NCBI GenBank assembly: GCA_000002445.1
Contig: CM000207.1
Location: 960,001 to 1,024,000, forward strand
Origin: Trypanosoma brucei
Lineage: Eukaryota
Length of the DNA stretch: 64,000 nucleotides
Reading direction: 5' to 3'
Both the position numbers and the translations under genes were made by a program. The notes beneath the pieces are model-generated. The model was not told the origin of the DNA. It saw nothing but the letters and a program-made list of their open reading frames with translations, and did not search any database. Positions 19,984 through 38,447 of the stretch are shown here, piece after piece (the first letter of the stretch is position 1; the number at the start of each line of letters is the position of its first letter).

Positions 19984-19996
19984 GGGGGGGGGGGGG
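19984..19996. repeat. G13 homopolymer run
   Basis: tatgggggggggggggtgaacgcg in the AK2 to next-gene spacer. Confidence 0.9.
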
Positions 19997-20314
19997 TGAA
20001 CGCGTGTCCACGCCACTGTTGCCGAAGTGTCTGCCCTGCTCTTCTACCAAATTTCCTGAATCGTATTTGTGTCGAACTGCTGTACGCAACTGTTCCGATT
20101 ACGCTTTTCGAATCCTCTCTTGTTAGTGTGTCTGATGTAGAACTATTCCATTGTTTTGTTGCTAACATATTATTATTATTATTATTATTTTTGCGATTTG
20201 TCATATATACGAAATTTTTTTCTTTTCATGCTTCTCCTCTGGTACGGGTAAGGGCACTAGGCAAGTGCAAGACCATTGCAAGTGGCATTTCAGGTTTGCG
20301 ACTCGCAGTGGGCT

Positions 20315-21841
20315 ATGTTTTGTTGCACCTTCACTCAAGCCTGCCGTGCCCAACCTGGTGGCGTACCCCGACTAGATGTGAGTACTGTCAAAAGAATGTT
20401 CCCTCCAGCGCAGGTAGCGCAATGGCCGCCGGGATATCTTCCGGCGTGTGGCGTCGCACACTTCCTGAGCCCCGATGGCGTCCCACTTGCTGATGTGATT
20501 GATTGCCACCGCGACATGAGGGCAGACCGCCGTTGCCAGCTTCAGCGGGATTTTGCTGCAGATTATACGATGTGGTGCCGGGCAACATTAATGGACTTTG
20601 TACGTCGCCTTAACGAGAGGGACCGACGTCGCATGAAGCGTTTTTGTATGCGCGACCGAACGATGCATGATGCTGAAGTCCGCGAGTTGCTCGGTCTTGC
20701 CCCATACGTAGCCCCACGAGCACAACCGTCGCAGGAAACTGTCGGTACTAGCGCGGCACCCAAATGGGGGAGTTGTTACGAATTCACCCCTTTTGCTGTG
20801 ACACAAGGTCACGCCATGCTTCCCGTGTCGCAGTGCAACGGGTCGGACGCACGTATGTACTTATCAACATTCCCACAGATAAGAAACATCATGCATACAG
20901 AGTTCGACAGCATGGGGCCCGCACGTGCCATAGCACTTCTCTCCGGTGATGATTTCTTTCCGACAGCTGAGTGTCTTCAGGAACTGGTGTTGTACCTCCG
21001 GAGCCGGGTGGGCGAAATTATCGCTGCGGAAAAGGCATTTCGCGGTTCCTCTCTGTTCACTGAGCGCGGTAGGGATGCCAATGACGGAGACCAGCATGAG
21101 GCCGATGCCGGTCAACCGTTCTCTCTTGATACACCTGTTGTTTCTTTTTTTGGTAACGGGCGTCTGGCGTGGTTATTAAACAACAGCGGCCTCCTCCCTT
21201 TCCCTGTGGTGCCTGTGCAACCGCCCGAGTACGCCGCGAGAAGACAGCGCCGCAACAAACATTTGCTCTCCCGTGATGGGTTTGTTTCAGAATTATTTGG
21301 GCATGGAGTACTTCCTGAAAGCTTCACTACCGTGTTTCCTTGCGAGACAATCACCGTCCCTGATGCCCTTCGCAAGTACCGCCCGTGTGTTGTGCTTGTG
21401 GAGCCGCATGTCGATAGGGACTGGTTGTGCGATCTCCGCGGGTTTTATACAACGAGGGAGGTGGTGTTGCTCGGGTCCGTAGACTCGCCAGCGATGTGCT
21501 CGTTTGGTTTTCCTTTTTTGTCTTTCGGCGTTATGGCCGGGCCCACTACCTATTGGGCATACAATGAGGCATTACAACGAGTGTCAGCAGCCGAGAGAAT
21601 TCAAATGCCTGTGGATCCACCACACGTGTCACAGGGCTATGCACGCCGTCCAATCGACAATATATCGTCCTACCTGATTTCTCCAAACGACTGCTATGCG
21701 TTTAGCTACCAGCATCGATGTCTTTCCTTCATTCGCAAGGAATACCCTATTTCCAGAGGGCGGTGCACAGAAGCAATATGCAACACGTCACCAGAGCTTT
21801 GTCCCTCGAATATGGTTGCCGGTGAGAAGCACCAAATATGA
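20315..21841 (+). CDS. Hypothetical protein (about 509 aa) located between arginine kinase copies 2 and 3
   Basis: Long ORF. The track start 20276 is a TTG and the first ATG is 20315. The true start could be a further downstream ATG. No recognisable domain. Confidence 0.55.
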   Translation: MFCCTFTQACRAQPGGVPRLDVSTVKRMFPPAQVAQWPPGYLPACGVAHFLSPDGVPLADVIDCHRDMRADRRCQLQRDFAADYTMWCRATLMDFVRRLNERDRRRMKRFCMRDRTMHDAEVRELLGLAPYVAPRAQPSQETVGTSAAPKWGSCYEFTPFAVTQGHAMLPVSQCNGSDARMYLSTFPQIRNIMHTEFDSMGPARAIALLSGDDFFPTAECLQELVLYLRSRVGEIIAAEKAFRGSSLFTERGRDANDGDQHEADAGQPFSLDTPVVSFFGNGRLAWLLNNSGLLPFPVVPVQPPEYAARRQRRNKHLLSRDGFVSELFGHGVLPESFTTVFPCETITVPDALRKYRPCVVLVEPHVDRDWLCDLRGFYTTREVVLLGSVDSPAMCSFGFPFLSFGVMAGPTTYWAYNEALQRVSAAERIQMPVDPPHVSQGYARRPIDNISSYLISPNDCYAFSYQHRCLSFIRKEYPISRGRCTEAICNTSPELCPSNMVAGEKHQI

Positions 21842-22260
21842 GTTTCACGGGGCATCAAAACTATAAAACACCAAAAAGTATCGACTTTTCATTAGCCCCT
21901 CTCCCAGTAATCCGTGCATTTTTTTTTTTGATACACCTGTCAATTAATGCGTGTTTCCGGTACCACATCGGGTGACAGTCATCGAATAAAACTGGCGATG
22001 CAAGTGACGGGATATTCTTCATTCACCGGCCGTACCCAAAGCGACTAAAGAAAAGAAGTTATAGCGGCAATGTGGCAAAAAAAAACAACTAAAGTCTAGA
22101 AAGCACAAAAAAATTTAACCACTGCATGTTGAAAAGTGTGGATTAACTTAACGTTTGTTCAGCGCGTATGTTCCCTCCTTTTCCTACTGCAACGCCACCG
22201 TTTTTATTAGTTTCTACGAAAAGCTAACAAATATCTACCAAACAAGAAAAAAAATTAAAG

Positions 22261-23331
22261 ATGGCTACCCGCGACGTTGCTGCCGAGTTGGAAAAGGCCT
22301 TTGCGAAACTGCAGGCTGCAAAGGACTGCCACTCGCTGTTGAAGAAATATCTGACAAGTGATGTCTTCAAGAAGCTAAAGGACAAGAAGACGAAGTTGGG
22401 TGCTACCTTACTTGATGTCATTCAATCTGGTGTACAGAACCTCGATTCCGGTGTTGGTTTATATGCACCAGACGCAGAAGCCTACACTGTGTTTGCCGAC
22501 CTCTTCGATCCCGTCATTGAGGATTACCACAACGGCTTTAAGGTAACGGACAAACAACCACCAAAGGACTTCGGTGACTTAAATACGCTGGTTGACGTTG
22601 ATCCGGAAGGTAAATATGTTATTTCCACCCGTGTGCGCTGTGGCCGCAGTCTCGCCGGTTACCCATTCAACCCATGCCTAACGAAGGAGCAGTACGAGGA
22701 AATGGAGTCACGTGTGCGGGAACAACTGAGCACAATGACAGATGATCTGCAAGGTACTTATTATCCGCTTTCTGGCATGACGAAAGAAACACAACAGCAG
22801 CTAATTGATGACCACTTCCTCTTCAAGGAGGGCGATCGTTTCCTGCAAGCTGCCCGCGCATGCGAGTATTGGCCAACTGGTCGTGGTATCTACCATAACA
22901 ATGACAAGACATTCCTCGTGTGGGTGAATGAAGAGGACCACCTGCGTATCATTTCCATGCAGAAGGGCGGGAACTTGAAGGAGGTCTTCGGCCGTCTTGT
23001 GAAGGCAGTGAACACCATTGAAAAAAAGGTGGAGTTCTCTCGTGATGATCGACTTGGTTTCCTGACGTTCTGCCCCTCGAACCTCGGCACGACGATCCGC
23101 GCAAGTGTGCACATCAAATTACCGAAACTTGGTGCTGATCGCGCTAAACTTGAGGAGGTTGCTGCAAAATATAACCTGCAGGTACGTGGAACAGCTGGTG
23201 AGCACTCTGACAGCCCTGACGGAATTTATGATATCAGCAACAAGCGCCGCCTCGGCCTATCGGAGTATGAAGCCGTAAAGGAAATGCAAGACGGTATCCT
23301 TGAGCTCATCAAACTGGAGAAGTCGAAGTAG
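22261..23331 (+). CDS. AK3: Arginine kinase, short isoform without targeting extensions (cytosolic type); 356 aa
   Basis: Core identical to AK1 and AK2 and ends 'LEKSK*'. Its 5' proximal 30 nt are identical to those upstream of AK2. Confidence 0.95.
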
Positions 23332-24636: not shown

Positions 24637-26577
24637 ATGCCGGATTCACCTGAAACTGGAAGAGCACCAATAAACCTCGAGGGTGAACTCTGCATGGAGA
24701 GGGTAGTGAACTACACTTGGGAGAACTTGGCCTTTCAGGTGCCCGCGAAGGACAGTGATGGGCGTAAGATAAAAAAAACGCTGATCCACAAGATGAGTGG
24801 GACGGCTTTGGGAGGGCGGGTCCTCGCAATCATGGGGCCATCCGGTGCCGGAAAAACTACATTGATGAGCGCCATCACGGGAAAACTGCACGGCACAGAA
24901 AAGAACCTTGAAGGATGTTGCTTCCTTAACAATGCGATATTCACAGATCGGTACAGGGCGGTCGTGTCTTTTGTGGCGCAGGATGATATTGTCATGGCCA
25001 TGGACACACCGTATGAAGCCACTTACTTTGCATGCCGCGTACGTCTCGGGTTGGGGCCTCGCGAATCAGAAGTCCTTGTGAATGAAGTCATTAACCGTCT
25101 GCACCTTGTAGAGTGCCAGGACACCGTGTTGGGTATTCCAGGACTTGTAAAGGGTGTGTCGGGTGGTGAACGGAAACGAGCTAATGTGGCCACGGCTCTC
25201 GTGGCAAACCCCTGTGTTATTGTGTTGGATGAACCAACCACTGGCCTCGACTCCGTCAACGCCCTTCGCGTGGGTCAGATGCTTCAAGACCTCGCAAAGA
25301 AGGAGAAGCGAACTGTTATCGCAACCGTTCACTCACCATCTTCTGAGCTCGTAGAGACATTCGATGACCTATTATTACTCTCTGAGGGTCATGTGGTATA
25401 TCATGGACCGAGGGAGGAGGCCACAGCATACTTCGCATCTATCGGTCATCAGGTGCCCCCGCGGACAAATCCCTGTGAGTACTTCATGGAACTCCTTCAG
25501 CTTCCGAAGGAGGAGTTAGAGGTGTTGTGGCGGGCCTGGGAACTTTATCTGACGACGCCAGCCGCGAGCACGAATCCCTGCCTGTTAAAGGTGTCGGGCC
25601 CCATTACGGAGAGAGACCCCTACCTGGAAGACCATCTAAAGAAAAAAGGATCCAGCTGGATTGTCCAACTGGTTGAACTTACGAAACGCTCCTATCGAAT
25701 GTATCCCCGCCACCCAAGCGCTGTCTTTGTTCGACTCGTGCAGACACTCTTCGTTGGTATTCTGATGGCCCTTTTCTATTTTCGGATTACTTTGGATCAA
25801 AATGGCGTGAAGGATCGTCTCGGTGTTCTACATATGGTGTTAATTAATGGCATGTTTTCGTCCGCAATGTACGGCGCCGCCGCTTACCCACCGGAACGTG
25901 CTGTGTATCTTCAGGAGCAATCCACCGACTCGTACAATGCGCTGACTTACGTGCTCGCAAAGTTTATCGCTGAGACGGCGTTTCAGGTTGCGTTCCCCAC
26001 GGCGTTCGCTCTAATCACCTACTTTACGATCGGGTTTTACGCTTCATTTTCCGCCTTTATGGTGCACTGGTTTCTGTTGGTGCAGTTAGCCCTCACAGCG
26101 TATGCCTTTGGTCTCGCCTTCGCAACGTTCTTCAAGTCCATCAACACAACCTACGCGCTGCTTCCTGTTGTGTTTCTCCCGCTCATTATAGTAACCGGGT
26201 TGTACGCCAACACAGAACGGTTGCACCCCTATTGGTCGTGGTTGATCGTCATTTCTTTCCCTCGTCACGCCTACCTTGGTGTCGTTATCAATGAGTTCAG
26301 CAGACTTGAAAAGATTTGTGACCCACCTGACCTTCACTGCCGCTATCCCGATGGTCAATCTGTCATTGAGTTCTTTAATTTTGACAGTTGGAGTTGGTGG
26401 AAGTCCATTGTCGTGCTCCTGGCGTATCAAGCTGTGCTTATCATCATCACATTTGTGTCCCTGCTCATTCAGGGGAAGCGAAGCAGAGGACGTTTAGTAT
26501 TCAGGAAGAATCTTGACTCCCGTAGCGACCCTGCTCAGACCGCTGCTTGCGCTGGTGAAACGGAAGAGGGGAAGTGA
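24637..26577 (+). CDS. ABC transporter, ABCG (white-type) half transporter with NBD then TMD; 646 aa
   Basis: Walker A 'GPSGAGKTT', ABC signature 'VSGGERKRANVA', Walker B 'VIVLDEPTTGLDS', H-loop 'ATVHSPS'. Followed by about 6 hydrophobic helices (ABC-2 type). Confidence 0.9.
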   Translation: MPDSPETGRAPINLEGELCMERVVNYTWENLAFQVPAKDSDGRKIKKTLIHKMSGTALGGRVLAIMGPSGAGKTTLMSAITGKLHGTEKNLEGCCFLNNAIFTDRYRAVVSFVAQDDIVMAMDTPYEATYFACRVRLGLGPRESEVLVNEVINRLHLVECQDTVLGIPGLVKGVSGGERKRANVATALVANPCVIVLDEPTTGLDSVNALRVGQMLQDLAKKEKRTVIATVHSPSSELVETFDDLLLLSEGHVVYHGPREEATAYFASIGHQVPPRTNPCEYFMELLQLPKEELEVLWRAWELYLTTPAASTNPCLLKVSGPITERDPYLEDHLKKKGSSWIVQLVELTKRSYRMYPRHPSAVFVRLVQTLFVGILMALFYFRITLDQNGVKDRLGVLHMVLINGMFSSAMYGAAAYPPERAVYLQEQSTDSYNALTYVLAKFIAETAFQVAFPTAFALITYFTIGFYASFSAFMVHWFLLVQLALTAYAFGLAFATFFKSINTTYALLPVVFLPLIIVTGLYANTERLHPYWSWLIVISFPRHAYLGVVINEFSRLEKICDPPDLHCRYPDGQSVIEFFNFDSWSWWKSIVVLLAYQAVLIIITFVSLLIQGKRSRGRLVFRKNLDSRSDPAQTAACAGETEEGK

Positions 26578-26930: not shown

Positions 26931-26933
<3 letters not shown>

Positions 26934-26965
<32 letters not shown>
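26934..26965. repeat. (TA)16 microsatellite in an intergenic region
   Basis: cggatatatatatatatatatatatatatatatatatgtt. Confidence 0.9.
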
Positions 26966-26968
<3 letters not shown>

Positions 26969-28385
26969 AATATATATTAATGTACATAGAAAATACTTCA
27001 GGTTGGCTATGGTTGCTGTATTGTTTTATCGTTTCGCTCCGTTTTCGTAATCTTCATTATTACTCTTTGGACAGGGGCTGTGCACCCCGTGAATGAGGAA
27101 AGTGCAGTTATACATCCCCACCCCCCTCACACCAAGCAAGATACCGAAAGAACAAATAATTTTTACACGATGACGGAGGTTTGAATGCTGACACTGTTAC
27201 ACCACTTCTTCAGTACCTTTACCACAGTGGTTCCTTTTGGTATGTCTGTTTTCTGCTGTTCATATATTTGTTTCGTTTATGTCTCGCGGAGGTGTATTTA
27301 GCGTGCATCTGTTTGACTCATGCGCGTTTCATAGCCTATTTCTTCCTCCAATATTCATCCGCGGCTCACCTGAAGTTTCACCTCATTTTATTCATTTATT
27401 TTTTTTCACTTCAATATCATAACATGTAACATTTTACATTACGTTCTGTATTGTTATTATTAGGACGCTAGTGAAGAGGAGGAGATGGGAAAGAAGTTGT
27501 GTGCGTACGGTAATGCATAAAAGAGAGGGGGGAAGGAACGGTTCTTTAAATTTCCCCCCTTTCTTCTTTACTCTGTTCCTATGTGTCAGGCCCCCCTTTT
27601 TTTACGTCGTTTACCTACTTGTTTATCTTTATTATCATGTTTCCTTTTCTCAAGGCAGAAAGTTGTAGGAAGAGGGAAGCAAAGGGGGAGGAAAATGGGT
27701 GAGGCGCATTTATTAGAAATATGCTTAAAAACTTCACCCATTTAGTATGATTGTTTATTAGTAAACGTTTGTTTCTGAGGTTTGTTGAGTACTAATCATT
27801 TATACATCCATCTATTTGATTACTTATTTATTTTGTTTTTCCCCCTTCTCTTCCAAAGTTTGTGCTTGTGAGGAAGCAAAGAAATAAATAGAATTGAGGT
27901 TACGGCAACGTGTGTATTTGTCTATGTTTTTACATTTGTTCCCAAAATTTATCACCTCTTTCCCCCATATCATCAGCAGCGCGCTGGTGTTGTGAATTGG
28001 TGTGGTGTCACCAAGTAATATAAACTGGTTTGCGTTGCTTCTCCTTCCGGTCGGTCTTCTGTTGTTCGCAAAAAATTAAATAAATAAATGGGGGAATATG
28101 TGAGGACACGAGGAGAACGGCACGCAATGCCGTTACGGACGAGATATGCCCCCTGTTTCGTTTTTTTTTATTTTTCGTTCACTTCACTTTTGTGCTTCCA
28201 GCATCTTTCCATGCATTACATCTTGATACATGTGCCGACGTAGATACATATGTGCATTCACCAGTGCGTTTGTGTTCCGTCGTTGTTATTCACATTCTGT
28301 TTTCATCTGAACTTTTAAAGGGGTGAGAGTGACACTTCTGAAAGTAATAAGTGGTTGTTGTTTTTTTTTTTTGTGGGGGGAGGGC

Positions 28386-29261: not shown

Positions 29262-29867
29262 TCTCTATCTAGCAGTTGTGGGGGGAAATTGCTTACAGTT
29301 TCACTGATTGAAAGATTGCGACCGAATGGATAAAAACAGTTAATGTGGAATCATTTTTTTAGTGCCACTAAACGGTTGGAAGGTGATCTGAAGAGAGCCT
29401 AGGCTGTTTCGGGAGTGCGCACTTGCTTGTTCCTTTGGTAATAGGGAACATTAATGCTTTTCTAAGAAGAATATTGTAATTGTCGTGGACACGTGGCCCT
29501 TGGCACCTGCATATACTCTTCCCGACAATGCTCTACGGGGATCGCGTGGTTATTGTTTGATACGACGTAGCCCCTGCTCTACTCGACTTTAAAATGTCTT
29601 TCTGCGGAAACGCAGTTGCGTGCACACAGTGTCGTCTCTTCCTTCGTGATGTGCCCTTTTGTTGTCATGGATGTTGTTGATTTCATACCTCTATCACCAC
29701 TCCCGCTCTTCTACGTTTGAAAGGTAATAGCTACATACATTCTCGTTAGGCGTCTTAACTGTATTAACCAATACTATATACGAGTGTATATATCCTTATA
29801 TTATATTGCACAATATCCTATATACATATATTGGATTGACGTGCGATTGTCCCAACGCTCCATACCA

Positions 29868-30962
29868 ATGGCTGAGTATGACATTAATTTGGAGGAAGCG
29901 CTTGGTGCGGCAATAGAGGCAGCTCGTAAAGCAGGTGGTATCATGTGGGACTTCTACCAGTACCGCCGGGAAACCATTGCAACCATAGCTTCAAAAATGC
30001 AAAAAGATGCCTCTGACAGTGTTGATGTGTCGTCAGGCACCGAAGCGGTGAATCCCAGCGTCTCTCAGCTCCTTGACATAAAGGCCAAAACTTCAACCAC
30101 AGATCTTGTCACATATTACGACAAACTTTGCGATGAAGCGATAATGAATGTTCTTCAGCAATACTCGTCAACGGTTGAAAACCAGAAGCGCGGAGCAGGT
30201 TACACTTCGTTTCGCTTCGGTTTTATTACGGAAGAAATATGCCCTGATAAGCAACTGGAAGACGTACCGACTTGGATTGTTGATCCCATTGATGGCACTA
30301 TGTCGTTTGTGCATGGGTCGTGCGACTGCTGCGTGAGTATTGGACTCACCATAAAGAAGGAAACGGTCCTTGCGGTGATTTATTGCCCGTTCCTCCCCTC
30401 TATAAACAAAAACCCCCCAGGACCGACCTCCTCTGGCGTCTACGCTGGTGAGATGTACACTGCCATTCGAGGCCAAGGGGCCTTTCTCAATGGCAGACGC
30501 ATAGTCGTGCAGACGGACACTACTCAAGATGCGGCTATGGTGGTCTTTGGCTACCCAATGCGTCCCGTGCTATCGGCAGAGGAACGGGAGAAAAATAGCA
30601 ACGACCTGGAGAAAGCCAGAAAGGAAAAGCACTGCGAAATGTTAGATGCTGCAGCACATATTCGAAAGAAGCTTGCCATGTGTCCAGTCCAGGGACTGCG
30701 CAGTTACGGCGCCTGTGCACTCATTTTAGCTTTTGTTGCTTCGGGTCGGATTGACCTCTACATGGAGCCCTCCGGCAAGATATGGGACGTCTGTGCAGGG
30801 AACCTTCTGGTCACTGAGGCGGGGGGTGTCGTGAAAAATATATGGGGGGATGAGTTCGAAATGGAGCGGACAACAACAATCATCGCAGGTGCAAACGAGA
30901 AGCTCGTGTCTTTTGCCGCAGAAATCTGCAATGAGGTGAGCTATGGAAGATTTTGGCTGTAG
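29868..30962 (+). CDS. Inositol monophosphatase family protein (IMPase/FBPase-like fold), 364 aa, with lineage-specific insertions
   Basis: IMPase motif A 'WIVDPIDGTMSFVHG' and motif B 'WDVCAGNLLVTEAGG'. The track start 29784 is a GTG within a TA-rich stretch; the first ATG is 29868 (MAEYDINLEEA...). Confidence 0.85.
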   Translation: MAEYDINLEEALGAAIEAARKAGGIMWDFYQYRRETIATIASKMQKDASDSVDVSSGTEAVNPSVSQLLDIKAKTSTTDLVTYYDKLCDEAIMNVLQQYSSTVENQKRGAGYTSFRFGFITEEICPDKQLEDVPTWIVDPIDGTMSFVHGSCDCCVSIGLTIKKETVLAVIYCPFLPSINKNPPGPTSSGVYAGEMYTAIRGQGAFLNGRRIVVQTDTTQDAAMVVFGYPMRPVLSAEEREKNSNDLEKARKEKHCEMLDAAAHIRKKLAMCPVQGLRSYGACALILAFVASGRIDLYMEPSGKIWDVCAGNLLVTEAGGVVKNIWGDEFEMERTTTIIAGANEKLVSFAAEICNEVSYGRFWL

Positions 30963-31464
30963 ATTGGAGCCGGCCCCATAAAGGTTCTTTTGTCATGTAT
31001 CATCCTCCGTACGAAATCACACCAGCATTAACGAAAGCAAAACGGTTAGATCGTTTGCCGCCATTTCCATTTCTCATATATGTTGCTCTCAATAAACGCT
31101 TGCACTCCCATGCTAGGAGGAGAGTGAATACGGTACTAGAAAGACACACCTTCACGAACATCAAGATGACGAACTAGGGAAATCATCAGAAACTACTCGA
31201 CGATTGAGCAACAAGACAACGAGAAAGATGTCTGCCACCTTAAGTATAGCTTGTCTTTGTCCACAATGAATACAAAGAACAGACTAGACAACATAAGTAG
31301 AACACTCAAAACGACAATAATGCTGAGCGTGGCATCTCCATTACTTTTTCGAATCGATTATACCCACAATGTTATAATTCACCGCAAAATGCTCGAGCCA
31401 ATAGCATTACATTAACAAACGACAAAAATCCTCAAAATGAAGAAAAATGAGGTATTAACGAGTT

Positions 31465-31774
31465 TCCTCTTGTTGCGCTTCTACCGATATATGTTTGCCG
31501 TAATGCTTTAATGAATTCCACCGCGGGAGTTACACGCAGTATCATTATGGACTGCGCTCGCAGGGAGAACCGTGCGATGTGGGCTGCATTCGAGTGTTTT
31601 GTTTCTTTCATGTGGTCGGCAAGTTCTGTAATGGGCGGATACATTGCTAGTGCGAAGGGATATAAGTATACATTTGTCATCACTGCCCTAATTCACTTTA
31701 TTGCTATGTTTGTATTGGTGCCGGCCATATCTGGTGTGCGGCAGTTGGATAGGCGCGGCAAGGTTTTGCGGTAA
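31465..31774 (+). pseudogene. 5'-truncated relic of a B-type copy of the MFS-like transporter (last about 100 codons only); marks the left edge of the transporter tandem array
   Basis: nt 31465-31774 is identical to 35478-35787 (C-terminus ...VRQLDRRGKVLR*). Sequence upstream of 31465 is unrelated, so the duplication breakpoint lies inside the CDS. Confidence 0.7.
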
Positions 31775-32356
31775 TTGAGTTTGTGTTGTTGGGATGGTTC
31801 AGTATTCTGCTGACCATTTGCTGTACGTTTGTGTTTTTGTCGACATAGTTTTTCGTTATGTGTAGTTTGCTGCAGGTTAGGAAGTTGAGTCATCTAGGAG
31901 AGCACGCATTTTGCCCGTATGTGGAATTGGTATCTTAATTGAGAATATAACGTCTCCAGTTGTGGGATATATATATATATGTATATATATTCTACATGCA
32001 TATCTAATTCACAAACAATGCGTCACCTTGAGGTGGCTGTTCACTACGAACTTTGTTACGCTTGGTTCCTCAATTTTTGGGTTGGACTCACCACTCATTG
32101 TGATCGGCTACGTTGTGGTACCCGGTTTATTGACTCTCTGCCTCTAGTGGCACATTATTAACTGTACATGCCACCGTGCTTTTCGCCCTTATTTGCTCCC
32201 TTTACGGTGGCCAATTTATATTTAACTTCTTCTTCATTTTGAGTGCCTTATTTGCTGTCATCACTCTTTAATTTTATATTTGGGCTGATTCTTATAACCT
32301 TGTCACTACTATTTATACATACCCTTGTATCTTACGTTAGATCACACTTCTTACCT

Positions 32357-33796
32357 ATGAGCAGCACAGACAATGATATCGTTGAGGAGCCCCGCAGTTT
32401 CCGGAAGGAATTAGAGAACAGTAACGTTAGGGGTGTGTTGTTGTTTGTATTCATTGATGGTGCTGCGTCCTCCATATGGTCTTCCCAACCGTACCAGGTG
32501 ATGGTCAGTCGCCTTGCAGGTGATACTGCAGTTGGTTGGGTATCCGCTGCCGCTGGAGTCGCACAAATCGTTGGCGCATTGATAGCTGGTGGTGTTCGCA
32601 ATGTGCCCCGTCAAGTCATCTGCCGCCTCAGCGCCTTTTGTGGTTTGGTTGCTGTGATCATGTCAGTTTATGGTATTACAACCCAAGATATAATGATATA
32701 TTACTTTGCTTCTGCGCTGTGGGGCATGTATGGAGGGATGGCGTTCACGGGGACTGAAGCGCTGTTTGCTGACAGTGTTGAATCAGGAAAGCGCGGCTTC
32801 GTGTACAACCTGAAGTGGATCAATGAAACAACAAGCTCATGCGTTGGCTCCCTTATCCTGCTTATCATGACACTCTACCTTGGAAACGACTGGGATACAA
32901 ATGTCTTGAAGATTCTCATGTATACCGGTCTTGCCGTTCACCCCACCGCTTTCTTTGCTTTACTCGGCATGAAAGACAAAAACATTCTCCACGTTGATGA
33001 TGGGTGTGAAGATTGCGAGCAATCCGCATCGGAAGCAAGCCAACGTCGACTGACTGATGGTGACTCATCAACCAAACCTTTACTGGGAGGAACTAAGGAT
33101 ATAATCGAAGAGGACGGCTGGGATGAAGAATCTGAGGAAGAGGAAAGAAATTGCTGTGACTACCTCTGTACTGGGGTCACATCCTCCTGGCAATGGCTCT
33201 TCACTGTGTCAGCTTTACCGTTTTTGCTTAGTCTATCTGACCTTCTGATAGCTACGGGTTCAGGTATCACGTTACAATATATATCTTTGTACTTCATTGA
33301 AAAACGTCACGTAACTCCTATTATGTTTTTCATTACAAACATTGCCTCCAATATCTGTATCGCGCTTTCTTCTACGATGGTGCGTTATCTCAGCGAGCAT
33401 CACCTTGATCGTGTGAGTGCCACCATACTCGTACGCACACTTAGTGCATCACTGTTGCTAACAATGGGTGTGATTGAACTTCCTCTTGTTGCGCTTCTAC
33501 CGATATATGTTTGCCGTAATGCTTTAATGAATTCCACCGCGGGAGTTACACGCAGTATCATTATGGACTGCGCTCGCAGGGAGAACCGTGCGATGTGGGC
33601 TGCATTCGAGTGTTTTGTTTCTTTCATGTGGTCGGCAAGTTCTGTAATGGGCGGATACATTGCTAGTGCGAAGGGATATAAGTATACATTTGTCATCACT
33701 GCCCTAATTCACTTTATTGCTATGTTTGTATTGGTGCCGGCCATATCTGGTGTGCGGCAGTTGGACAGACACGCAAAAGCGAAATCACGAACTTGA
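32357..33796 (+). CDS. Multi-pass membrane transporter, probably major facilitator superfamily (12 predicted TM, about 479 aa); A-type copy
   Basis: About 12 hydrophobic helices. An MFS motif-A-like 'QVMVSRLAGDTAVGW' sits after TM2. Acidic central loop 'EEDGWDEESEEEERN'. The track start 32243 is a GTG in a pyrimidine tract; the first ATG is 32357 (MSSTDNDIVEEP...). Confidence 0.75.
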   Translation: MSSTDNDIVEEPRSFRKELENSNVRGVLLFVFIDGAASSIWSSQPYQVMVSRLAGDTAVGWVSAAAGVAQIVGALIAGGVRNVPRQVICRLSAFCGLVAVIMSVYGITTQDIMIYYFASALWGMYGGMAFTGTEALFADSVESGKRGFVYNLKWINETTSSCVGSLILLIMTLYLGNDWDTNVLKILMYTGLAVHPTAFFALLGMKDKNILHVDDGCEDCEQSASEASQRRLTDGDSSTKPLLGGTKDIIEEDGWDEESEEEERNCCDYLCTGVTSSWQWLFTVSALPFLLSLSDLLIATGSGITLQYISLYFIEKRHVTPIMFFITNIASNICIALSSTMVRYLSEHHLDRVSATILVRTLSASLLLTMGVIELPLVALLPIYVCRNALMNSTAGVTRSIIMDCARRENRAMWAAFECFVSFMWSASSVMGGYIASAKGYKYTFVITALIHFIAMFVLVPAISGVRQLDRHAKAKSRT

Positions 33797-34374
33797 GTGG
33801 CATTGGTGAGGGAATGTTGTTTGTTGCTTTGTTGGTGTCGTGTCTGCAACTCATATTTGGGAATGCGTGGGATCAGGAGCGATTGCCATGGGTCTTTGCT
33901 TTGGAAAAGATCTCTTTTTTTTTTGTTGATTGCTTACTTGTACTACGTGTTGGTAGAACGGGCGCTTACGGGACTACATGCACTACTCCATATTTACCGC
34001 TGTTGGGTTTGCACAGGGAAATTAGTTTCGTGTCCCTCTCTTTCATTTTTAATTTTTTTTTACATCAACTTTGTTACGCTTGGTTCCTCAATTTTTGGGT
34101 TGGACTCACCACTCATTGTGATCGGCTACGTTGTGGTACCCGGTTTATTGACTCTCTGCCTCTAGTGGCACATTATTAACTGTACATGCCACCGTGCTTT
34201 TCGCCCTTATTTGCTCCCTTTACGGTGGCCAATTTATATTTAACTTCTTCTTCATTTTGAGTGCCTTATTTGCTGTCATCACTCTTTAATTTTATATTTG
34301 GGCTGATTCTTATAACCTTGTCACTACTATTTATACATACCCTTGTATCTTACGTTAGATCACACTTCTTACCT

Positions 34375-35787
34375 ATGAGCAGCACAGACAATGATATCGT
34401 TGAGGAGCCCCGCAGTTTCCGGAAGGAATTAGAGAACAGTAACGTTCGAAATGTGTTGTTGTTTGCATTCCTTAATGGTGCTGCGTCCTCCATATGGTCT
34501 TCCCAACCGTACCAGGTGATGGTCAGTCGCCTTGCAGGTGATACTGCAGTTGGTTGGGTATCCGCTGCCTCGGGGACCACCCAAAGTATTAGCGCATTGA
34601 TAGCTGGTGGTGTTCGCAATGTGCCCCGTCAAGTCATCTGCCGCCTCAGCGCCTTTTGTGGTTTGGTTGCTGTGATCATGTCAGTTTATGGTATTACAAC
34701 CCAAGATATCACTGTCATTCTTCTTGCTTCTGCGCTGTGGGGCATGTATGGAGGGATGGCGTTCACGGGGACTGAAGCGCTGTTTGCTGACAGTGTTGAA
34801 TCAGGAAAGCGCGGCTTCGTGTACAACCTGAAGTGGATCAATGAAACAACAAGCTCATGCGTTGGCTCCCTTATCCTGCTTATCATGACACTCTACCTTG
34901 GAAACGACTGGGATACAAATGTCTTGAAGATTCTCATGTATACCGGTCTTGCCGTTCACCCCACCGCTTTCTTTGCTTTACTCGGCATGAAAGACAAAAA
35001 CATTCTCCACGTTGATGATGGGTGTGAAGATTGCGAGCAATCCGCATCGGAAGCAAGCCAACGTCGACTGACTGATGGTGACTCATCAACCAAACCTTTA
35101 CTGGGAGGAACTAAGGATACAATCGAAGAGGAGAATGAGTCAAAAAAGTATCGTAAGTGCCTCTGTGGTCGGATAGCCTCCTTCTGGCAATGGCTCTTCA
35201 CTGTGTCAGCTTTACCGTATTTGGTTGCTGCAACCAATTTGATTGCTTTTATTGGTTCAGGAATGACAATGCAATACATTTCCCTTTATTTTATAAAAGA
35301 ACGTCATGTAACTCCTATTATGTTTTTCATTACAAACATTGCCTCCAATATCTGTATCGCGCTTTCTTCTACGATGGTGCGTTATCTCAGCGAGCATCAC
35401 CTTGATCGTGTGAGTGCCACCATACTCGTACGCACACTTAGTGCATCACTGTTGCTAACAATGGGTGTGATTGAACTTCCTCTTGTTGCGCTTCTACCGA
35501 TATATGTTTGCCGTAATGCTTTAATGAATTCCACCGCGGGAGTTACACGCAGTATCATTATGGACTGCGCTCGCAGGGAGAACCGTGCGATGTGGGCTGC
35601 ATTCGAGTGTTTTGTTTCTTTCATGTGGTCGGCAAGTTCTGTAATGGGCGGATACATTGCTAGTGCGAAGGGATATAAGTATACATTTGTCATCACTGCC
35701 CTAATTCACTTTATTGCTATGTTTGTATTGGTGCCGGCCATATCTGGTGTGCGGCAGTTGGATAGGCGCGGCAAGGTTTTGCGGTAA
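34375..35787 (+). CDS. MFS-like membrane transporter, B-type copy (about 470 aa); differs from A in discrete patches and in its C-terminal tail
   Basis: Same frame and TM layout. Variant segments: NVLLFAFLNG, ASGTTQSISAL, ITVILLAS, central loop 'EEENESKKYRKCLCGRIAS', TM7 'YLVAATNLIAFIGSGMTMQ', tail 'RRGKVLR*'. Confidence 0.75.
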   Translation: MSSTDNDIVEEPRSFRKELENSNVRNVLLFAFLNGAASSIWSSQPYQVMVSRLAGDTAVGWVSAASGTTQSISALIAGGVRNVPRQVICRLSAFCGLVAVIMSVYGITTQDITVILLASALWGMYGGMAFTGTEALFADSVESGKRGFVYNLKWINETTSSCVGSLILLIMTLYLGNDWDTNVLKILMYTGLAVHPTAFFALLGMKDKNILHVDDGCEDCEQSASEASQRRLTDGDSSTKPLLGGTKDTIEEENESKKYRKCLCGRIASFWQWLFTVSALPYLVAATNLIAFIGSGMTMQYISLYFIKERHVTPIMFFITNIASNICIALSSTMVRYLSEHHLDRVSATILVRTLSASLLLTMGVIELPLVALLPIYVCRNALMNSTAGVTRSIIMDCARRENRAMWAAFECFVSFMWSASSVMGGYIASAKGYKYTFVITALIHFIAMFVLVPAISGVRQLDRRGKVLR

Positions 35788-36369
35788 TTGAGTTTGTGTT
35801 GTTGGGATGGTTCAGTATTCTGCTGACCATTTGCTGTACGTTTGTGTTTTTGTCGACATAGTTTTTCGTTATGTGTAGTTTGCTGCAGGTTAGGAAGTTG
35901 AGTCATCTAGGAGAGCACGCATTTTGCCCGTATGTGGAATTGGTATCTTAATTGAGAATATAACGTCTCCAGTTGTGGGATATATATATATATGTATATA
36001 TATTCTACATGCATATCTAATTCACAAACAATGCGTCACCTTGAGGTGGCTGTTCACTACGAACTTTGTTACGCTTGGTTCCTCAATTTTTGGGTTGGAC
36101 TCACCACTCATTGTGATCGGCTACGTTGTGGTACCCGGTTTATTGACTCTCTGCCTCTAGTGGCACATTATTAACTGTACATGCCACCGTGCTTTTCGCC
36201 CTTATTTGCTCCCTTTACGGTGGCCAATTTATATTTAACTTCTTCTTCATTTTGAGTGCCTTATTTGCTGTCATCACTCTTTAATTTTATATTTGGGCTG
36301 ATTCTTATAACCTTGTCACTACTATTTATACATACCCTTGTATCTTACGTTAGATCACACTTCTTACCT

Positions 36370-37809
36370 ATGAGCAGCACAGACAATGATATCGTTGAGG
36401 AGCCCCGCAGTTTCCGGAAGGAATTAGAGAACAGTAACGTTAGGGGTGTGTTGTTGTTTGTATTCATTGATGGTGCTGCGTCCTCCATATGGTCTTCCCA
36501 ACCGTACCAGGTGATGGTCAGTCGCCTTGCAGGTGATACTGCAGTTGGTTGGGTATCCGCTGCCGCTGGAGTCGCACAAATCGTTGGCGCATTGATAGCT
36601 GGTGGTGTTCGCAATGTGCCCCGTCAAGTCATCTGCCGCCTCAGCGCCTTTTGTGGTTTGGTTGCTGTGATCATGTCAGTTTATGGTATTACAACCCAAG
36701 ATATAATGATATATTACTTTGCTTCTGCGCTGTGGGGCATGTATGGAGGGATGGCGTTCACGGGGACTGAAGCGCTGTTTGCTGACAGTGTTGAATCAGG
36801 AAAGCGCGGCTTCGTGTACAACCTGAAGTGGATCAATGAAACAACAAGCTCATGCGTTGGCTCCCTTATCCTGCTTATCATGACACTCTACCTTGGAAAC
36901 GACTGGGATACAAATGTCTTGAAGATTCTCATGTATACCGGTCTTGCCGTTCACCCCACCGCTTTCTTTGCTTTACTCGGCATGAAAGACAAAAACATTC
37001 TCCACGTTGATGATGGGTGTGAAGATTGCGAGCAATCCGCATCGGAAGCAAGCCAACGTCGACTGACTGATGGTGACTCATCAACCAAACCTTTACTGGG
37101 AGGAACTAAGGATATAATCGAAGAGGACGGCTGGGATGAAGAATCTGAGGAAGAGGAAAGAAATTGCTGTGACTACCTCTGTACTGGGGTCACATCCTCC
37201 TGGCAATGGCTCTTCACTGTGTCAGCTTTACCGTTTTTGCTCGCTTTGGGTAATTTGCTTATTTCCGTTGGCTCTGGAGTCACAATGCAATACATTTCCC
37301 TTTATTTTATAAAAGAACGTCACGTAACTCCTATTATGTTTTTCATTACAAACATTGCTGTCAATATCTGTATCGCGCTTTCTTCCACGATGGTGCGTTA
37401 TCTCAGCGAGCATCACCTTGATCGTGTGAGTGCCACCATACTCGTACGCACACTTAGTGCGTTTTTCATGCTAACAATGGGTGTGATTGAACTTCCTCTT
37501 GTTGCGCTTCTACCGATATATGTTTGCCGTAATGCTTTAATGAATTCCACCGCGGGAGTTACACGCAGTATCATTATGGACTGCGCTCGCAGGGAGAACC
37601 GTGCGATGTGGGCTGCATTCGAGTGTTTTGTTTCTTTCATGTGGTCGGCAAGTTCTGTAATGGGCGGATACATTGCTAGTGCGAAGGGATATAAGTATAC
37701 ATTTGTCATCACTGCCCTAATTCACTTTATTGCTATGTTTGTATTGGTGCCGGCCATATCTGGTGTGCGGCAGTTGGACAGACACGCAAAAGCGAAATCA
37801 CGAACTTGA
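36370..37809 (+). CDS. MFS-like membrane transporter, A'-type copy (about 479 aa). A-like, but with B-like or novel patches in TM7-TM10
   Basis: Identical to copy A except 'FLLALGNLLISVGSGVTMQYISLYFIKERHV', 'AVNICIA' and 'SAFFMLTMG'. The tail 'HAKAKSRT*' is as in A. Confidence 0.75.
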   Translation: MSSTDNDIVEEPRSFRKELENSNVRGVLLFVFIDGAASSIWSSQPYQVMVSRLAGDTAVGWVSAAAGVAQIVGALIAGGVRNVPRQVICRLSAFCGLVAVIMSVYGITTQDIMIYYFASALWGMYGGMAFTGTEALFADSVESGKRGFVYNLKWINETTSSCVGSLILLIMTLYLGNDWDTNVLKILMYTGLAVHPTAFFALLGMKDKNILHVDDGCEDCEQSASEASQRRLTDGDSSTKPLLGGTKDIIEEDGWDEESEEEERNCCDYLCTGVTSSWQWLFTVSALPFLLALGNLLISVGSGVTMQYISLYFIKERHVTPIMFFITNIAVNICIALSSTMVRYLSEHHLDRVSATILVRTLSAFFMLTMGVIELPLVALLPIYVCRNALMNSTAGVTRSIIMDCARRENRAMWAAFECFVSFMWSASSVMGGYIASAKGYKYTFVITALIHFIAMFVLVPAISGVRQLDRHAKAKSRT

Positions 37810-38447
37810 GTGGCATTGGTGAGGGAATGTTGTTTGTTGCTTTGTTGGTGTCGTATCTGCAACTCATATTTGGGAATGCGTGGGATCAGGAGCGATTGCC
37901 ATGGGTCTTTGCTTTGGAAAAGATCTCTTTTTTTTTTTGTTGATTGCTTACTTGTACTACGTGTTGGTAGAACGGGCGCTTACGGGACTACATGCACTAC
38001 TCAATATTCACCATTGGTAAGTTCCTTGGTCAGTGCCTGTTATTTTCAAATCTTTTTTTCTTTTTTTCGTTTTTCAATGGGCGTAATAAGTAGACGGTAA
38101 CATTCATCCTTGTATTATCTGTGAGTGCCTGTCTGGCGTGTGTGGCCTCCATTTGGTTGAATAATTGTAGGTTCCCTTCTATGTGTCGCTGGCGTTTGCC
38201 ACTGATTTTATTACCCTTTTCCGCTCTTATCTGCTGTTGCGGCCGTTATACCTCTGCTCCCAGTACCCTATTTTTCTTGGTGGGGGAAGCCGTTGTATTG
38301 GCGTGATGCATTATATATGCAGATGCACTGTCTAATCTCCGCGTTTTGTCCTTTCTGTGTTGTCCCTGTCCATGCTTAGTTGGTTTTCCTCCTGGCTCTC
38401 CTTTGTTATCCGTCGTTCAATTTTAATAGGCGTTTCTGCATTCTTTG

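What the first reader, a model, noticed from the sequence alone, without database searches (positions are those of the whole stretch)
31465..37995. Tandem array of MFS-like transporter genes with patchwork variation in short cassettes and a truncated relic at the array edge
Three full copies (A, B, A') and a 5'-truncated B fragment alternate with a 4013-bp period. Copies are identical over most of their length but differ in short discrete segments. These map to predicted TM1-2 (GVLLFVFIDG vs NVLLFAFLNG), TM3 (AAGVAQIVGAL vs ASGTTQSISAL), TM4 (IMIYYFAS vs ITVILLAS), the central cytoplasmic loop (acidic EEDGWDEESEEEERN vs basic EEENESKKYRKC), TM7 and TM9-10. Copy A' carries a third combination. 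The C-terminal tails and 3' flanks alternate (…HAKAKSRT vs …RRGKVLR). This looks like a gene family homogenised by gene conversion while keeping, or re-assorting, a few variable cassettes. That pattern would fit diversification of substrate-contact residues. The left array boundary falls inside a coding sequence (relic at 31465-31774), which is typical of unequal crossover.
Basis: seen in the sequence. Interest (0 to 1): 0.6.

Follow-up and report, generated by a model that had tools for sequence, protein, structure and literature searches.

The report
Known trypanosome lysosomal transporter gene triplet
This is the already catalogued three-gene array of lysosomal MFS transporters on Trypanosoma brucei chromosome 9 (Tb927.9.6360-80, the locus that makes the parasite sensitive to suramin); the patchwork is real and reflects gene conversion that has erased all differences except a few old islands.

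Summary
Three MFS genes (A 32357-33796, B 34375-35787, A' 36370-37809) and a 5'-truncated B-type relic (31464-31774) repeat with a 4013-bp period. Their differences sit in a few islands (permutation P<1e-4).

The window is T. b. brucei TREU927 chromosome 9. The proteins are exactly XP_827005-7, the MFST locus Tb927.9.6360-80. RNAi or deletion of this locus reduces suramin and aminoglycoside efficacy.

The array is already array 84 of Jackson 2007. Jackson 2010 reported recombination tests on it (PHI p<0.001, GARD 6 breakpoints).

My analysis supports gene conversion:
- There are no differences in 386 codons outside the islands, but inside them synonymous sites are near saturation (pS about 0.65).
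- Some polymorphisms are shared by A- and B-type copies within a strain.
- The array is colinear in T. b. equiperdum.

It does not support positive diversifying selection, because pN<pS. Island divergence is as deep as T. brucei versus T. vivax, which has one syntenic copy.

One detail I did not find in the papers searched. The islands toggle two family-conserved membrane Asp residues (TM1 D34, TM7 D295): A is D/D, A' is D/N, B is N/N. A and B also have unrelated 3' flanks.

The relic is best read as a deletion scar, not a product of homologous unequal crossover.

The parts
31464..31774 (+). Relic: the last 103 codons plus stop of a B-type MFST copy, with no 5' part. It abuts unique DNA downstream of the inositol monophosphatase gene.
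   Evidence: sharp junction at 31463|31464. 31464-31749 is 100% identical to all three full copies. B-type tail ...RRGKVLR*. Present in T. b. equiperdum and T. b. gambiense.
31775..32048 (+). B-type 3' flank, copy 1 (contains a TA-rich tract).
   Evidence: 100% identical to 35788-36061. Not alignable with the A-type flank.
32049..32356 (+). Common 5' region, copy 1. Presumed to carry the trans-splice acceptor and 5'UTR (inferred).
   Evidence: 308 nt, 100% identical in all three units.
32357..33796 (+). MFST copy A = Tb927.9.6360 (Tb09.160.4630; EAN76675/XP_827005), 479 aa. TM1 D34 and TM7 D295 both Asp. Unique alpha cassette in TM7.
   Evidence: Exact protein match. Coordinates fit Jackson 2007 Table S3. 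Pfam MFS_1 30 bits. AF2 model with 12 TM helices.
32429..32456 (+). Island 1, TM1 (GVLLFVFID vs NVLLFAFLN). Includes the D34/N34 switch.
32552..32573 (+). Island 2, TM2 (AGVAQIVG vs SGTTQSIS).
32692..32705 (+). Island 3, start of TM4 (MIYYF vs TVILL). B loses an aromatic triplet that most homologues have.
33102..33186 (+). Island 4, end of the disordered central loop plus the amphipathic helix. Acidic EEDGWDEESEEEERNCCDY in A and A' against the basic, 9-codon-shorter EEENESKKYRKC in B.
33222..33310 (+). Island 5, TM7, with three haplotypes: alpha in A, beta in B, gamma in A'. Includes the D295/N295 switch.
33346..33474 (+). TM8-TM9 polymorphic stretch (S331V, SLL to FFM and others). Its variants are shared across A- and B-type copies within strains.
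   Evidence: (CDS nt 990-1118).
33766..34066 (+). A-type C-terminal tail (HAKAKSRT*) and A-type 3' flank.
   Evidence: 33797-33998 is 98% identical to 37810-38012. Unrelated to the B-type tail and flank.
34067..34374 (+). Common 5' region, copy 2.
34375..35787 (+). MFST copy B = Tb927.9.6370 (EAN76676/XP_827006), 470 aa. N34 and N295, basic loop, tail RRGKVLR*.
   Evidence: Exact protein match. Pfam MFS_1 35.1 bits, above the cut-off.
35788..36061 (+). B-type 3' flank, copy 2.
36062..36369 (+). Common 5' region, copy 3.
36370..37809 (+). MFST copy A' = Tb927.9.6380 (EAN76677/XP_827007), 479 aa. D34 and N295. Gamma TM7 cassette, V331, FFM at 365-367.
   Evidence: Exact protein match.
37810..38012 (+). 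A-type 3' flank of A'. The repeat ends here and unique downstream DNA follows.

Best explanation
**Identity (shown).** This is the T. brucei brucei TREU927 chromosome 9 MFST locus: Tb927.9.6360, .6370 and .6380, formerly Tb09.160.4630 and following genes. Three tandem genes in one polycistronic transcription unit encode 12-TM major-facilitator transporters.

**Function (from the literature).** At least one copy is lysosomal. Knockdown or deletion of the locus makes bloodstream forms about 10-fold less sensitive to suramin and mildly less sensitive to paromomycin, neomycin and G418. The proposed role is export of drug or cargo from the lysosome lumen to the cytosol. The natural substrate is unknown.

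**Sequence pattern (shown or strongly inferred).** Repeated short- and long-tract gene conversion between the tandem copies has made the 5' regions and about 80% of the coding sequence identical. Six short islands keep deep, old divergence between two isoform types, A and B. TM7 carries a third cassette.

**Array history (inferred).**
- It began as a single syntenic gene, as still seen in T. vivax.
- Duplication produced two types with unrelated C-terminal tails and 3' flanks.
- The B-A pair then duplicated, giving B-A-B-A'.
- A non-homologous deletion removed the 5' three quarters of the first B copy and left the relic at 31464-31774.

**Functional difference between isoforms (inferred, not tested).**
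- The islands lie in the cavity helices TM1, TM4 and TM7 and in TM2.
- They switch the two family-conserved membrane-embedded Asp residues: A is D/D, A' is D/N, B is N/N.
- They also reverse the charge of the central loop.
- The unrelated 3' flanks would allow separate post-transcriptional control of each type, as in other trypanosome arrays.

**Confidence by layer.** Identity about 0.99. Gene conversion with retained old islands about 0.85. The deletion-scar history about 0.6. Functional isoform differences about 0.4.
For: **Identity**
- The three proteins match XP_827005, XP_827006 and XP_827007 exactly.
- Spacing of the arginine kinase and MFS arrays matches the chromosome 9 coordinates in Jackson 2007 Table S3 to the base: 946887-954102 and 963128-968580, a window offset of 930771.
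- Function of the locus.

**MFS fold**
- AF2 model pLDDT 81.5, pTM 0.78, 12 TM helices.
- Foldseek probability 1.0 to NorA, GlpT, LmrP, sialin, GLUTs and others.
- Pfam MFS_1.

**Gene conversion**
- 0 differences in 386 codons (273 synonymous sites) outside the islands, against pS 0.65 and pN 0.35 inside them.
- Clustering P<1e-4.
- Five sites at CDS nt 1104-1118 have one state in all three TREU927 copies and the other state in all three equiperdum copies, regardless of type.
- The equiperdum B copy carries an A-type micro-tract (nt 75-92) inside its TM1 island.
- In equiperdum and gambiense the alpha TM7 cassette of copy 1 is replaced by gamma.
- Published PHI p<0.001 and 6 GARD breakpoints for this array.

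**Real copy number**
- The equiperdum assembly is colinear.
- T. evansi has three orthologues that match copy for copy.

**Ancestral state**
- T. vivax has a single syntenic copy, in the order IMPase-MFS-hypothetical-665 aa.

**Conserved Asp residues**
- D at TM1 position 34 and at TM7 position 295 in 12 of 14 non-brucei homologues each.

**3' flanks**
- The A- and B-type flanks are unalignable: score 8, against a shuffle mean of 7.4.
Against: - No experiment separates the three isoforms. RNAi and the deletion hit all three together.
- Expressing Tb927.9.6360 alone in T. congolense did not change suramin sensitivity.
- Island boundaries are defined by the differences themselves, so pS inside them is biased upward.
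- The strains compared are very close relatives (about 1.6% divergent at this locus). Persistence of the islands across them is therefore weak evidence for selection.
- I had no model coordinates, so cavity exposure of individual island residues was not measured. Island substitutions are contiguous rather than confined to one helix face.
- The array history is a parsimony argument and has no outgroup support. The T. congolense locus was not available.
Confidence: 0.85

Rival explanations
1. The islands are products of positive, diversifying selection on substrate-contact residues. On this view they diverged recently and fast, and are not old sequence that has been retained.
For: - The islands fall in TM1, TM2, TM4 and TM7, which in MFS proteins form or flank the central cavity (plus established MFS architecture).
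- They change conserved polar, acidic and aromatic residues.
- pN in the islands (0.33-0.35) is somewhat higher than T. brucei vs T. vivax pN in the rest of the TM core (0.25).
Against: - Synonymous sites in the islands are near saturation: pS 0.65 for A vs B, about 1.0 for A vs A' in TM7. pN/pS is about 0.3-0.5.
- Island divergence equals T. brucei vs T. vivax divergence in the same codons.
- The B-type cassettes in TM2, TM4 and TM7 are identical between TREU927 and equiperdum, so there is no sign of ongoing diversification.
Confidence: 0.1
2. The islands persist neutrally. Their divergence of 30-50% locally blocks heteroduplex formation, because mismatch repair suppresses homeologous recombination. 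Conversion tracts therefore stop at their edges, and the isoforms are functionally equivalent dosage copies.
For: - Island edges are sharp and are flanked by perfectly identical sequence.
- The locus is dispensable in culture, so constraint may be weak.
- Trypanosome tandem arrays are often explained by gene dosage.
Against: - The islands are only 14-90 nt long inside identical tracts of several hundred nt.
- They can be overwritten. One tract ends inside the TM1 island in equiperdum, and the TM7 alpha cassette is replaced by gamma in two subspecies.
- With that turnover, neutral islands as old as pS of about 0.65 should have been erased.
- The islands hit family-conserved Asp and aromatic positions rather than random ones.
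Confidence: 0.22
3. The divergent cassettes were not retained from an old duplication. They were imported into a young array by templated micro-conversion from a divergent donor, such as a lost or ectopic paralogue, or introgression from a divergent lineage.
For: - Island divergence is as deep as T. brucei vs T. vivax, although T. vivax has only one copy.
- TM7 has three mutually very different cassettes.
- The alpha cassette is seen only in TREU927 copy A. From the identity table, it is probably also in T. evansi copy 1.
Against: - The homologue search found no other T. brucei paralogue that could act as donor.
- Nothing in the window matches the cassettes (and within the array).
- An old duplication followed by loss in T. 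vivax explains the same data.
Confidence: 0.1
4. Assembly artefact: alleles or collapsed repeats were stitched together into a false mosaic array.
For: - T. b. gambiense DAL972 has only two copies, one of them an A-body/B-tail hybrid.
Against: - An independent T. b. equiperdum assembly has the same relic-A-B-A' order at 98.4% identity over 9.4 kb.
- T. evansi has three copy-for-copy orthologues.
- The locus was deleted and the deletion checked by Southern blot in Lister 427.
Confidence: 0.02

Closest known systems
T. brucei MFST locus Tb927.9.6360-80, also listed as tandem array 84 / Tb09.160.4630 (Jackson 2007; Jackson et al. 2010)
   Same: It is this locus. The three proteins are identical and the chromosome coordinates match. 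Published facts: three non-identical tandem copies; at least one lysosomal copy; determinant of suramin, paromomycin, neomycin and G418 efficacy; dispensable in culture; recombination detected (PHI p<0.001, 6 GARD breakpoints); 3 copies in T. b. brucei against 2 in T. b. gambiense.
   Different: I did not find the following in the papers searched:
- the map of islands onto helices;
- the D/D, D/N, N/N series at two conserved membrane Asp residues;
- the saturated synonymous divergence of the islands;
- the unrelated 3' flanks of the two types;
- the 5'-truncated relic.
TbAQP2/TbAQP3 tandem aquaglyceroporin pair in T. brucei
   Same: Tandem transporter paralogues whose recombination produces chimeras, at a locus that determines drug efficacy (abstract of PMC7413563).
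   Different: It belongs to a different protein family and sits in a different membrane, at the flagellar pocket or cell surface. For AQP2/3 the link between chimeras and resistance has been shown experimentally. For MFST no isoform-specific or chimera-specific phenotype is known.
Concerted evolution of trypanosome tandem arrays with structural heterogeneity, e.g. amino acid transporter, hexose transporter and pteridine transporter arrays (Jackson 2007; Jackson 2010 Table 2)
   Same: Both homogenisation and differentiation occur within one array. Copies are sequence mosaics, and some copies are subspecies-specific recombinants.
   Different: The array is small (3 copies). The contrast is unusually clean: zero differences outside the islands against near-saturated islands of 14-90 nt.
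Bacterial DHA1 drug:H+ antiporters LmrP and NorA
   Same: 12-TM MFS fold. They are the best sequence-profile matches among solved structures (E 1.6e-4 and about 1e-3, over TM2-TM5) and are among the top Foldseek hits. They use membrane-embedded acidic residues for proton and substrate handling (established knowledge).
   Different: Identity is only 12-14%. Many unrelated MFS subfamilies score equally well by fold. Subfamily membership is therefore not established, and nothing here shows transport direction or coupling.
Single-copy syntenic orthologues: T. vivax P0003 and Leishmania LmjF.15.0870
   Same: Same genomic neighbourhood in T. vivax (ABC transporter, IMPase, MFS, hypothetical, 665-aa protein) and 52% identity to T. 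vivax. Collett 2019 names LmjF.15.0870 as the syntenic gene.
   Different: Single copy, with no isoform series. T. vivax has N at the TM1 position and S at the TM7 position.

Membership tests
Major facilitator superfamily (MFS) | Twelve transmembrane helices arranged as two six-helix bundles joined by a long cytoplasmic loop. | tested here: met
   AF2 model: TM1-6 at residues 22-203, a disordered loop at 204-265, and TM7-12 at 284-459. pLDDT 81.5, pTM 0.78.
Major facilitator superfamily (MFS) | Structural similarity to solved MFS transporters. | tested here: met
   Foldseek against the PDB: 450 matches at E<=1e-3. All of the top 50 listed are MFS proteins (NorA, GlpT, LmrP, sialin, GLUT1/3, VMAT2 and others), with probability 1.00 and TM-score up to 0.76 on the target.
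Major facilitator superfamily (MFS) | Pfam MFS_1 (PF07690) hit above the gathering score. | tested here: inconclusive
   B scores 35.1 bits, above the 33.4 cut-off. A' scores 32.8 and A scores 30.0, both just below. All cover profile positions 3-343 of 347. The source databases precompute PF07690 for all homologues.
T. brucei MFST locus Tb927.9.6360-80 (Jackson array 84) | Protein sequences identical to the TREU927 reference genes, in the same order. | tested here: met
   A = EAN76675/XP_827005, B = EAN76676/XP_827006, A' = EAN76677/XP_827007.
T. brucei MFST locus Tb927.9.6360-80 (Jackson array 84) | Chromosomal position and neighbours. | tested here: met
   Jackson 2007 Table S3 places arginine kinase x3 at 946887-954102 and Tb09.160.4630 x3 (1440 nt) at 963128-968580. 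The window features 16116-23331 and 32357-37809 give the same spans (7215 and 5452 bp) and the same offset (16241 bp).
T. brucei MFST locus Tb927.9.6360-80 (Jackson array 84) | Lysosomal localisation and a role in suramin and aminoglycoside efficacy. | not testable with these tools
   Taken from the literature only.
Tandem array under concerted evolution by gene conversion | Long identical tracts interrupted by sharply bounded divergent segments, beyond chance. | tested here: met
   P<1e-4. 0 of 273 synonymous sites differ outside the islands, against 37 of 57 inside.
Tandem array under concerted evolution by gene conversion | Paralogues within one genome share variants that distinguish them from their orthologues in another genome. 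| tested here: met
   at CDS nt 1104-1118 all TREU927 copies read A/C/G/A/T and all equiperdum copies read G/T/A/G/C. Sites 990-1099 group TREU927 A with B against A'.
Tandem array under concerted evolution by gene conversion | Formal recombination tests. | not tested
   I did not re-run these tests. Published for this array: PHI observed 0.009 against mean 0.199, p<0.001; GARD 6 breakpoints; LRT 0 breakpoints (Jackson 2010 Table 2, row 84).
DHA1 drug:H+ antiporter subfamily of MFS | Specific sequence relationship to DHA1 members over the whole protein, including the antiporter motifs. | tested here: inconclusive
   only TM2-TM5 aligns to LmrP (E 1.6e-4) and NorA (E about 1e-3); the fold is equally similar to symporters, uniporters and organic-anion transporters.

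The most novel reading that the evidence does not exclude
The three copies may be functionally graded isoforms rather than dosage copies. The retained cassettes strip the two family-conserved membrane-embedded Asp residues stepwise: Tb927.9.6360 is D34/D295, .6380 is D34/N295 and .6370 is N34/N295. In .6370 they also replace an acidic loop by a basic one and remove the TM4 aromatic triplet. This would give transporters with different proton coupling or substrate-charge preference, under separate 3'UTR control. That could explain how one locus influences both the polyanion suramin and polycationic aminoglycosides. It would also predict that the N/N isoform, not the .6360 copy tested so far in T. 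congolense, is the relevant suramin carrier. The cassettes would then be held in place by selection against gene conversion.
Probability: 0.15. Interest if true: 0.55.

Novelty: already known. Interest (0 to 1): 0.25.

Why it matters
- **Medical relevance.** The locus is the proposed lysosomal exit route for suramin, a front-line drug for early-stage East African sleeping sickness. It also modifies aminoglycoside action. All functional work so far treats the three genes as one unit.
- **What the island map adds.** The copies differ at the positions where MFS transporters usually bind substrate and protons, and the copies recombine. T. b. gambiense has a natural A/B hybrid. Single-isoform add-back experiments are therefore worth doing, and copy or cassette content should be scored in suramin-resistant field isolates. 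The precedent is AQP2/AQP3 chimeras in melarsoprol-pentamidine resistance.
- **As genome biology.** It is a clean textbook case of concerted evolution with retained islands, not a new phenomenon.

Tried and rejected
- **Origin of the B-type 3' flank.** I compared U1, iB, the common 5' region, iA and D with the T. vivax intergenic regions. Only chance matches of 10-15 nt appeared, so the idea that iB is the ancestral upstream region stays untested.
- **Donor for the cassettes inside the window.** None found.
- **T. congolense orthologue, to date the duplication.** It was absent from the homologue search. Ungogo 2022 reports nothing above 75% identity. I ran no further search on it.
- **Alsford 2012 (Nature).** The paper is not held in the library, so its statements are cited through Collett 2019 and Ungogo 2022.
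- **Jackson 2007 Table S1.** It lists only larger arrays. Array 84 is not in it, although it is in Table S3.
- **Tandem Repeats Finder.** It reports nothing, because the period exceeds its 500-bp limit.
- **Cavity exposure of island residues.** The argument therefore rests on helix identity and general MFS architecture.
- **Rejected readings.** Assembly chimera, sequencing error, and positive selection as the driver of the islands.

Full report
**1. What is in the sequence**

Between 31464 and 38012 on the + strand there are three intact ORFs. From their first ATG they are:
- A, 32357-33796, 479 aa
- B, 34375-35787, 470 aa
- A', 36370-37809, 479 aa

A 311-nt fragment at 31464-31774 holds only the last 103 codons and the stop of a B-type copy.

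Self-BLAST aligns 31464-33998 to 35477-38012 at 98.1%. Adjacent units are 2018 and 1995 bp apart.

Each unit has three parts:
- a 308-nt 5' region that is 100% identical in all three copies (32049, 34067 and 36062 onwards);
- the coding sequence;
- one of two 3' ends.

The two 3' ends start to differ 31 nt before the A-type stop. A-type is ...HAKAKSRT* plus flank, and B-type is ...RRGKVLR* plus flank. They cannot be aligned: score 8, against 7.4 +/- 4.7 for shuffles.

The left edge is a sharp junction at 31463|31464 between unique DNA and codon 375 of the coding sequence.

**2. The patchwork is real and non-random**

A and B differ at 99 aligned positions plus 27 gap positions, all within six clusters. 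A and A' differ at 45 positions in three clusters.

The longest identical runs are 455, 986 and 396 nt. In 10,000 random placements of the same number of differences the maxima were 209, 393 and 222 nt.

**3. Identity of the locus**

- The three proteins are exact matches to consecutive T. brucei brucei TREU927 proteins EAN76675/6/7 = XP_827005/6/7.
- Upstream lie an inositol monophosphatase (29865-30962), an ABCG-type transporter and three arginine kinase genes.
- Jackson 2007 Table S3 lists, on chromosome 9, 'arginine kinase, 3 copies, 946887-954102' and 'array 84, Tb09.160.4630, 3 copies, 1440 nt, 963128-968580'.
- The corresponding window features, 16116-23331 and 32357-37809, have exactly the same spans and the same separation.

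The window is therefore chromosome 9 with an offset of 930771. The array is Tb09.160.4630 and following genes, now Tb927.9.6360-80.

**4. What is already known about it**

- Collett et al. 2019 describe Tb927.9.6360-80 as three MFS transporter genes sharing at least 92% identity.
  - Citing Alsford 2012, they report that RNAi against them reduces suramin sensitivity 10-fold and that at least one copy is lysosomal.
  - Deletion of the whole locus is tolerated in culture. It reduces suramin, paromomycin and neomycin efficacy.
  - The syntenic Leishmania gene is single copy.
- Ungogo et al. [quoted passage not shown]
  - They tabulate copy-for-copy orthologues in T. evansi and T. equiperdum.
  - Expressing Tb927.9.6360 in T. 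congolense did not change suramin sensitivity.
- A 2026 paper again recovered the locus in a G418-based screen.
- Jackson et al. 2010, Table 2 row 84, already ran recombination tests on this array. It has 3 copies in T. b. brucei and 2 in T. b. gambiense, with PHI p<0.001 and 6 GARD breakpoints.
- The general phenomenon of 'sequence mosaics and concerted evolution' in T. brucei arrays is the subject of Jackson 2007.

**5. Protein family**

- Pfam MFS_1 scores sit around the cut-off (30.0, 35.1 and 32.8 bits against 33.4).
- An AlphaFold2 model of copy A, built with 17 homologues, is confident (pLDDT 81.5, pTM 0.78). It has 12 TM helices in two bundles separated by a disordered loop at 204-265.
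- Foldseek finds hundreds of solved MFS transporters with probability 1.0. No subfamily is clearly preferred.
- By sequence profile the nearest solved proteins are LmrP and NorA, but only over TM2-TM5 and only weakly.

On the model, the A/B islands map as follows:

| Island | Residues | Location |
|---|---|---|
| 1 | 26-34 | TM1 |
| 2 | 66-73 | TM2 |
| 3 | 113-117 | start of TM4 |
| 4 | 249-277 | loop end and pre-TM7 amphipathic helix |
| 5 | 289-316 | TM7 |
| 6 | from residue 473 | C-terminal tail |

The A'-specific changes lie in TM8 (S331V) and TM9 (residues 365-367).

**6. Gene conversion versus diversifying selection**

Nei-Gojobori counts:
- Outside the islands A and B show no difference in 386 codons (273 synonymous sites).
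- Inside the islands pS = 0.65 and pN = 0.35.
- For the A vs A' TM7 cassette, pS is about 1.0 and pN is 0.25.

The islands are therefore old sequence, saturated at silent sites, with pN<pS. They are not recent bursts of amino-acid change.

In the TM islands, A-B divergence (pS 0.67, pN 0.33) equals T. brucei vs T. vivax divergence in the same codons (pS 0.69-0.75, pN 0.28-0.35). It approaches that of the rest of the TM core (pS 0.80, pN 0.25). There is an ascertainment caveat: islands are defined by their differences.

**7. Cross-strain evidence**

- A T. b. equiperdum assembly (GCA_003543875.1) is colinear with the window over 9.4 kb at 98.4%. It has the same relic and the same A-B-A order.
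- The B-type cassettes in TM2, TM4 and TM7 are unchanged there.
- Its B copy carries an A-type micro-tract (CDS nt 75-92) inside the TM1 island, and its first copy has the gamma TM7 cassette instead of alpha.
- At nt 1104-1118, all three TREU927 copies share one haplotype and all three equiperdum copies share the other, irrespective of type. At nt 990-1099, TREU927 A groups with B against A'. These are direct signatures of conversion between paralogues, with tracts from under 25 nt to several hundred nt.
- T. b. gambiense DAL972 has the relic plus two copies. The first is an A-type body joined to the B tail and flank. That is what an unequal exchange within the invariant 286-nt 3' segment would give, or what an assembly collapse would give.
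- T. evansi copy 1 is 99.58% identical to .6360. Copies carrying gamma are only about 96% identical to .6360, so the alpha cassette is very likely present there too.
- T. vivax has one syntenic copy.

**8. What the islands change**

In an alignment with 14 non-brucei homologues, two membrane-embedded Asp residues are each conserved in 12 of 14. They are TM1 position 34 (motif F-x-D-G-A) and TM7 position 295 (motif V-D-x-L-x-A-x-G-S-G).

| Gene | Position 34 | Position 295 |
|---|---|---|
| Copy A | D | D |
| Copy A' | D | N |
| Copy B | N | N |
| T. vivax (single gene) | N | S |

B also replaces the aromatic triplet at the start of TM4 (YYF; F/Y-rich in most homologues) by ILL. It replaces two hydrophobic TM2 positions by Ser. 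It replaces the acidic loop segment EEDGWDEESEEEERNCCDY by the basic EEENESKKYRKC.

TM1, TM4 and TM7 are cavity-lining helices in MFS proteins (established architecture). Isoform-specific substrate or proton handling is therefore plausible. I could not measure cavity exposure because no coordinates were available, and no isoform-specific experiment exists.

**9. The relic**

Homologous unequal crossover changes copy number without truncating copies. A single tandem duplication creates one novel junction inside the array, not at its edge. A 5'-truncated copy fused to unique upstream DNA therefore needs a non-homologous break.

The simplest history (inference):
- two isoform types arise, with different 3' ends;
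- the B-A pair duplicates, giving B-A-B-A';
- a deletion of at least 1.7 kb removes the upstream flank, the 5' region and codons 1-374 of the first B.

The relic is shared by brucei, gambiense and equiperdum. It is identical to the live copies over 286 nt in all of them, although the locus as a whole differs by about 1.6% between strains. This fits the relic taking part in conversion. That 286-nt segment is also invariant in every functional copy, so there are no informative sites.

The relic lies between the IMPase stop codon and the first MFST 5' region, so it is probably part of the IMPase 3'UTR (untested).

**10. Verdict**

The gene-conversion reading is supported. The positive-selection flavour of 'diversification' is not supported, and the unequal-crossover explanation of the relic is imprecise.

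The array, its drug phenotype and its recombinant nature are already published, so novelty is low.

The residual points of interest are:
- the stepwise loss of two conserved membrane Asp residues across the isoforms;
- the two unrelated 3' ends;
- the depth of island divergence compared with a single-copy T. vivax.

Together these make isoform-specific function a concrete, cheap experiment in the existing null line.

Noticed in passing
window 16116-23331: Three tandem arginine kinase genes (404, 370 and 356 aa; 16116-17330, 18506-19618, 22261-23331) differ in their terminal extensions. This is Jackson 2007 array 83a. It is a second tandem array with structural heterogeneity in the same window.
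   Followed up: partly
window 20276-21841: A 521-aa ORF with a TTG start and no Pfam hit sits between arginine kinase copies 2 and 3. It makes the spacing of that array uneven. It may be a real interposed gene or just an open frame.
   Followed up: no
window 30963-32356: The MFST relic and a B-type 3' flank lie between the inositol monophosphatase stop codon and the first MFST 5' region. The IMPase mRNA therefore probably ends in MFST-derived sequence and shares its 3'UTR with MFST copy B. This is an inference with no transcript data.
   Followed up: no
L002 8001-9476 (T. b. gambiense DAL972, FN554972.1): The first gambiense copy (P0001) is a hybrid. It has A-type islands in TM1-TM4 and the loop, the gamma TM7 cassette, and the B-type tail and 3' flank. 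Only two copies are assembled. It is either a natural unequal-exchange product or an assembly collapse.
   Followed up: partly
window 32243-32356, 34261-34374, 36256-36369: The 38 codons upstream of each ATG are open, in frame and hydrophobic, and are identical in all copies. In T. b. gambiense an ATA to ATG change gives an annotated N-terminus 14 residues longer (MHTLVSYVRSHFLP-MSST...).
   Followed up: no
window 33480-33765 and its copies at 31464, 35477 and 37493; L001 and L002 equivalents: A 286-nt segment encoding TM10-TM12 shows no difference among any of the 11 copies and relics in the three T. brucei genomes compared. The locus overall differs by about 1.6% between strains.
   Followed up: partly
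window 24637-26577: An ABCG-type half-transporter gene (ABC_tran plus ABC2_membrane) lies two genes upstream of the array. Its position is conserved in T. vivax.
   Followed up: no
window 31965-31990 and 26932-26978: The B-type 3' flank contains a (TA)n-like tract. It matches a longer TA microsatellite downstream of the ABCG gene. This is probably just low-complexity sequence.
   Followed up: no
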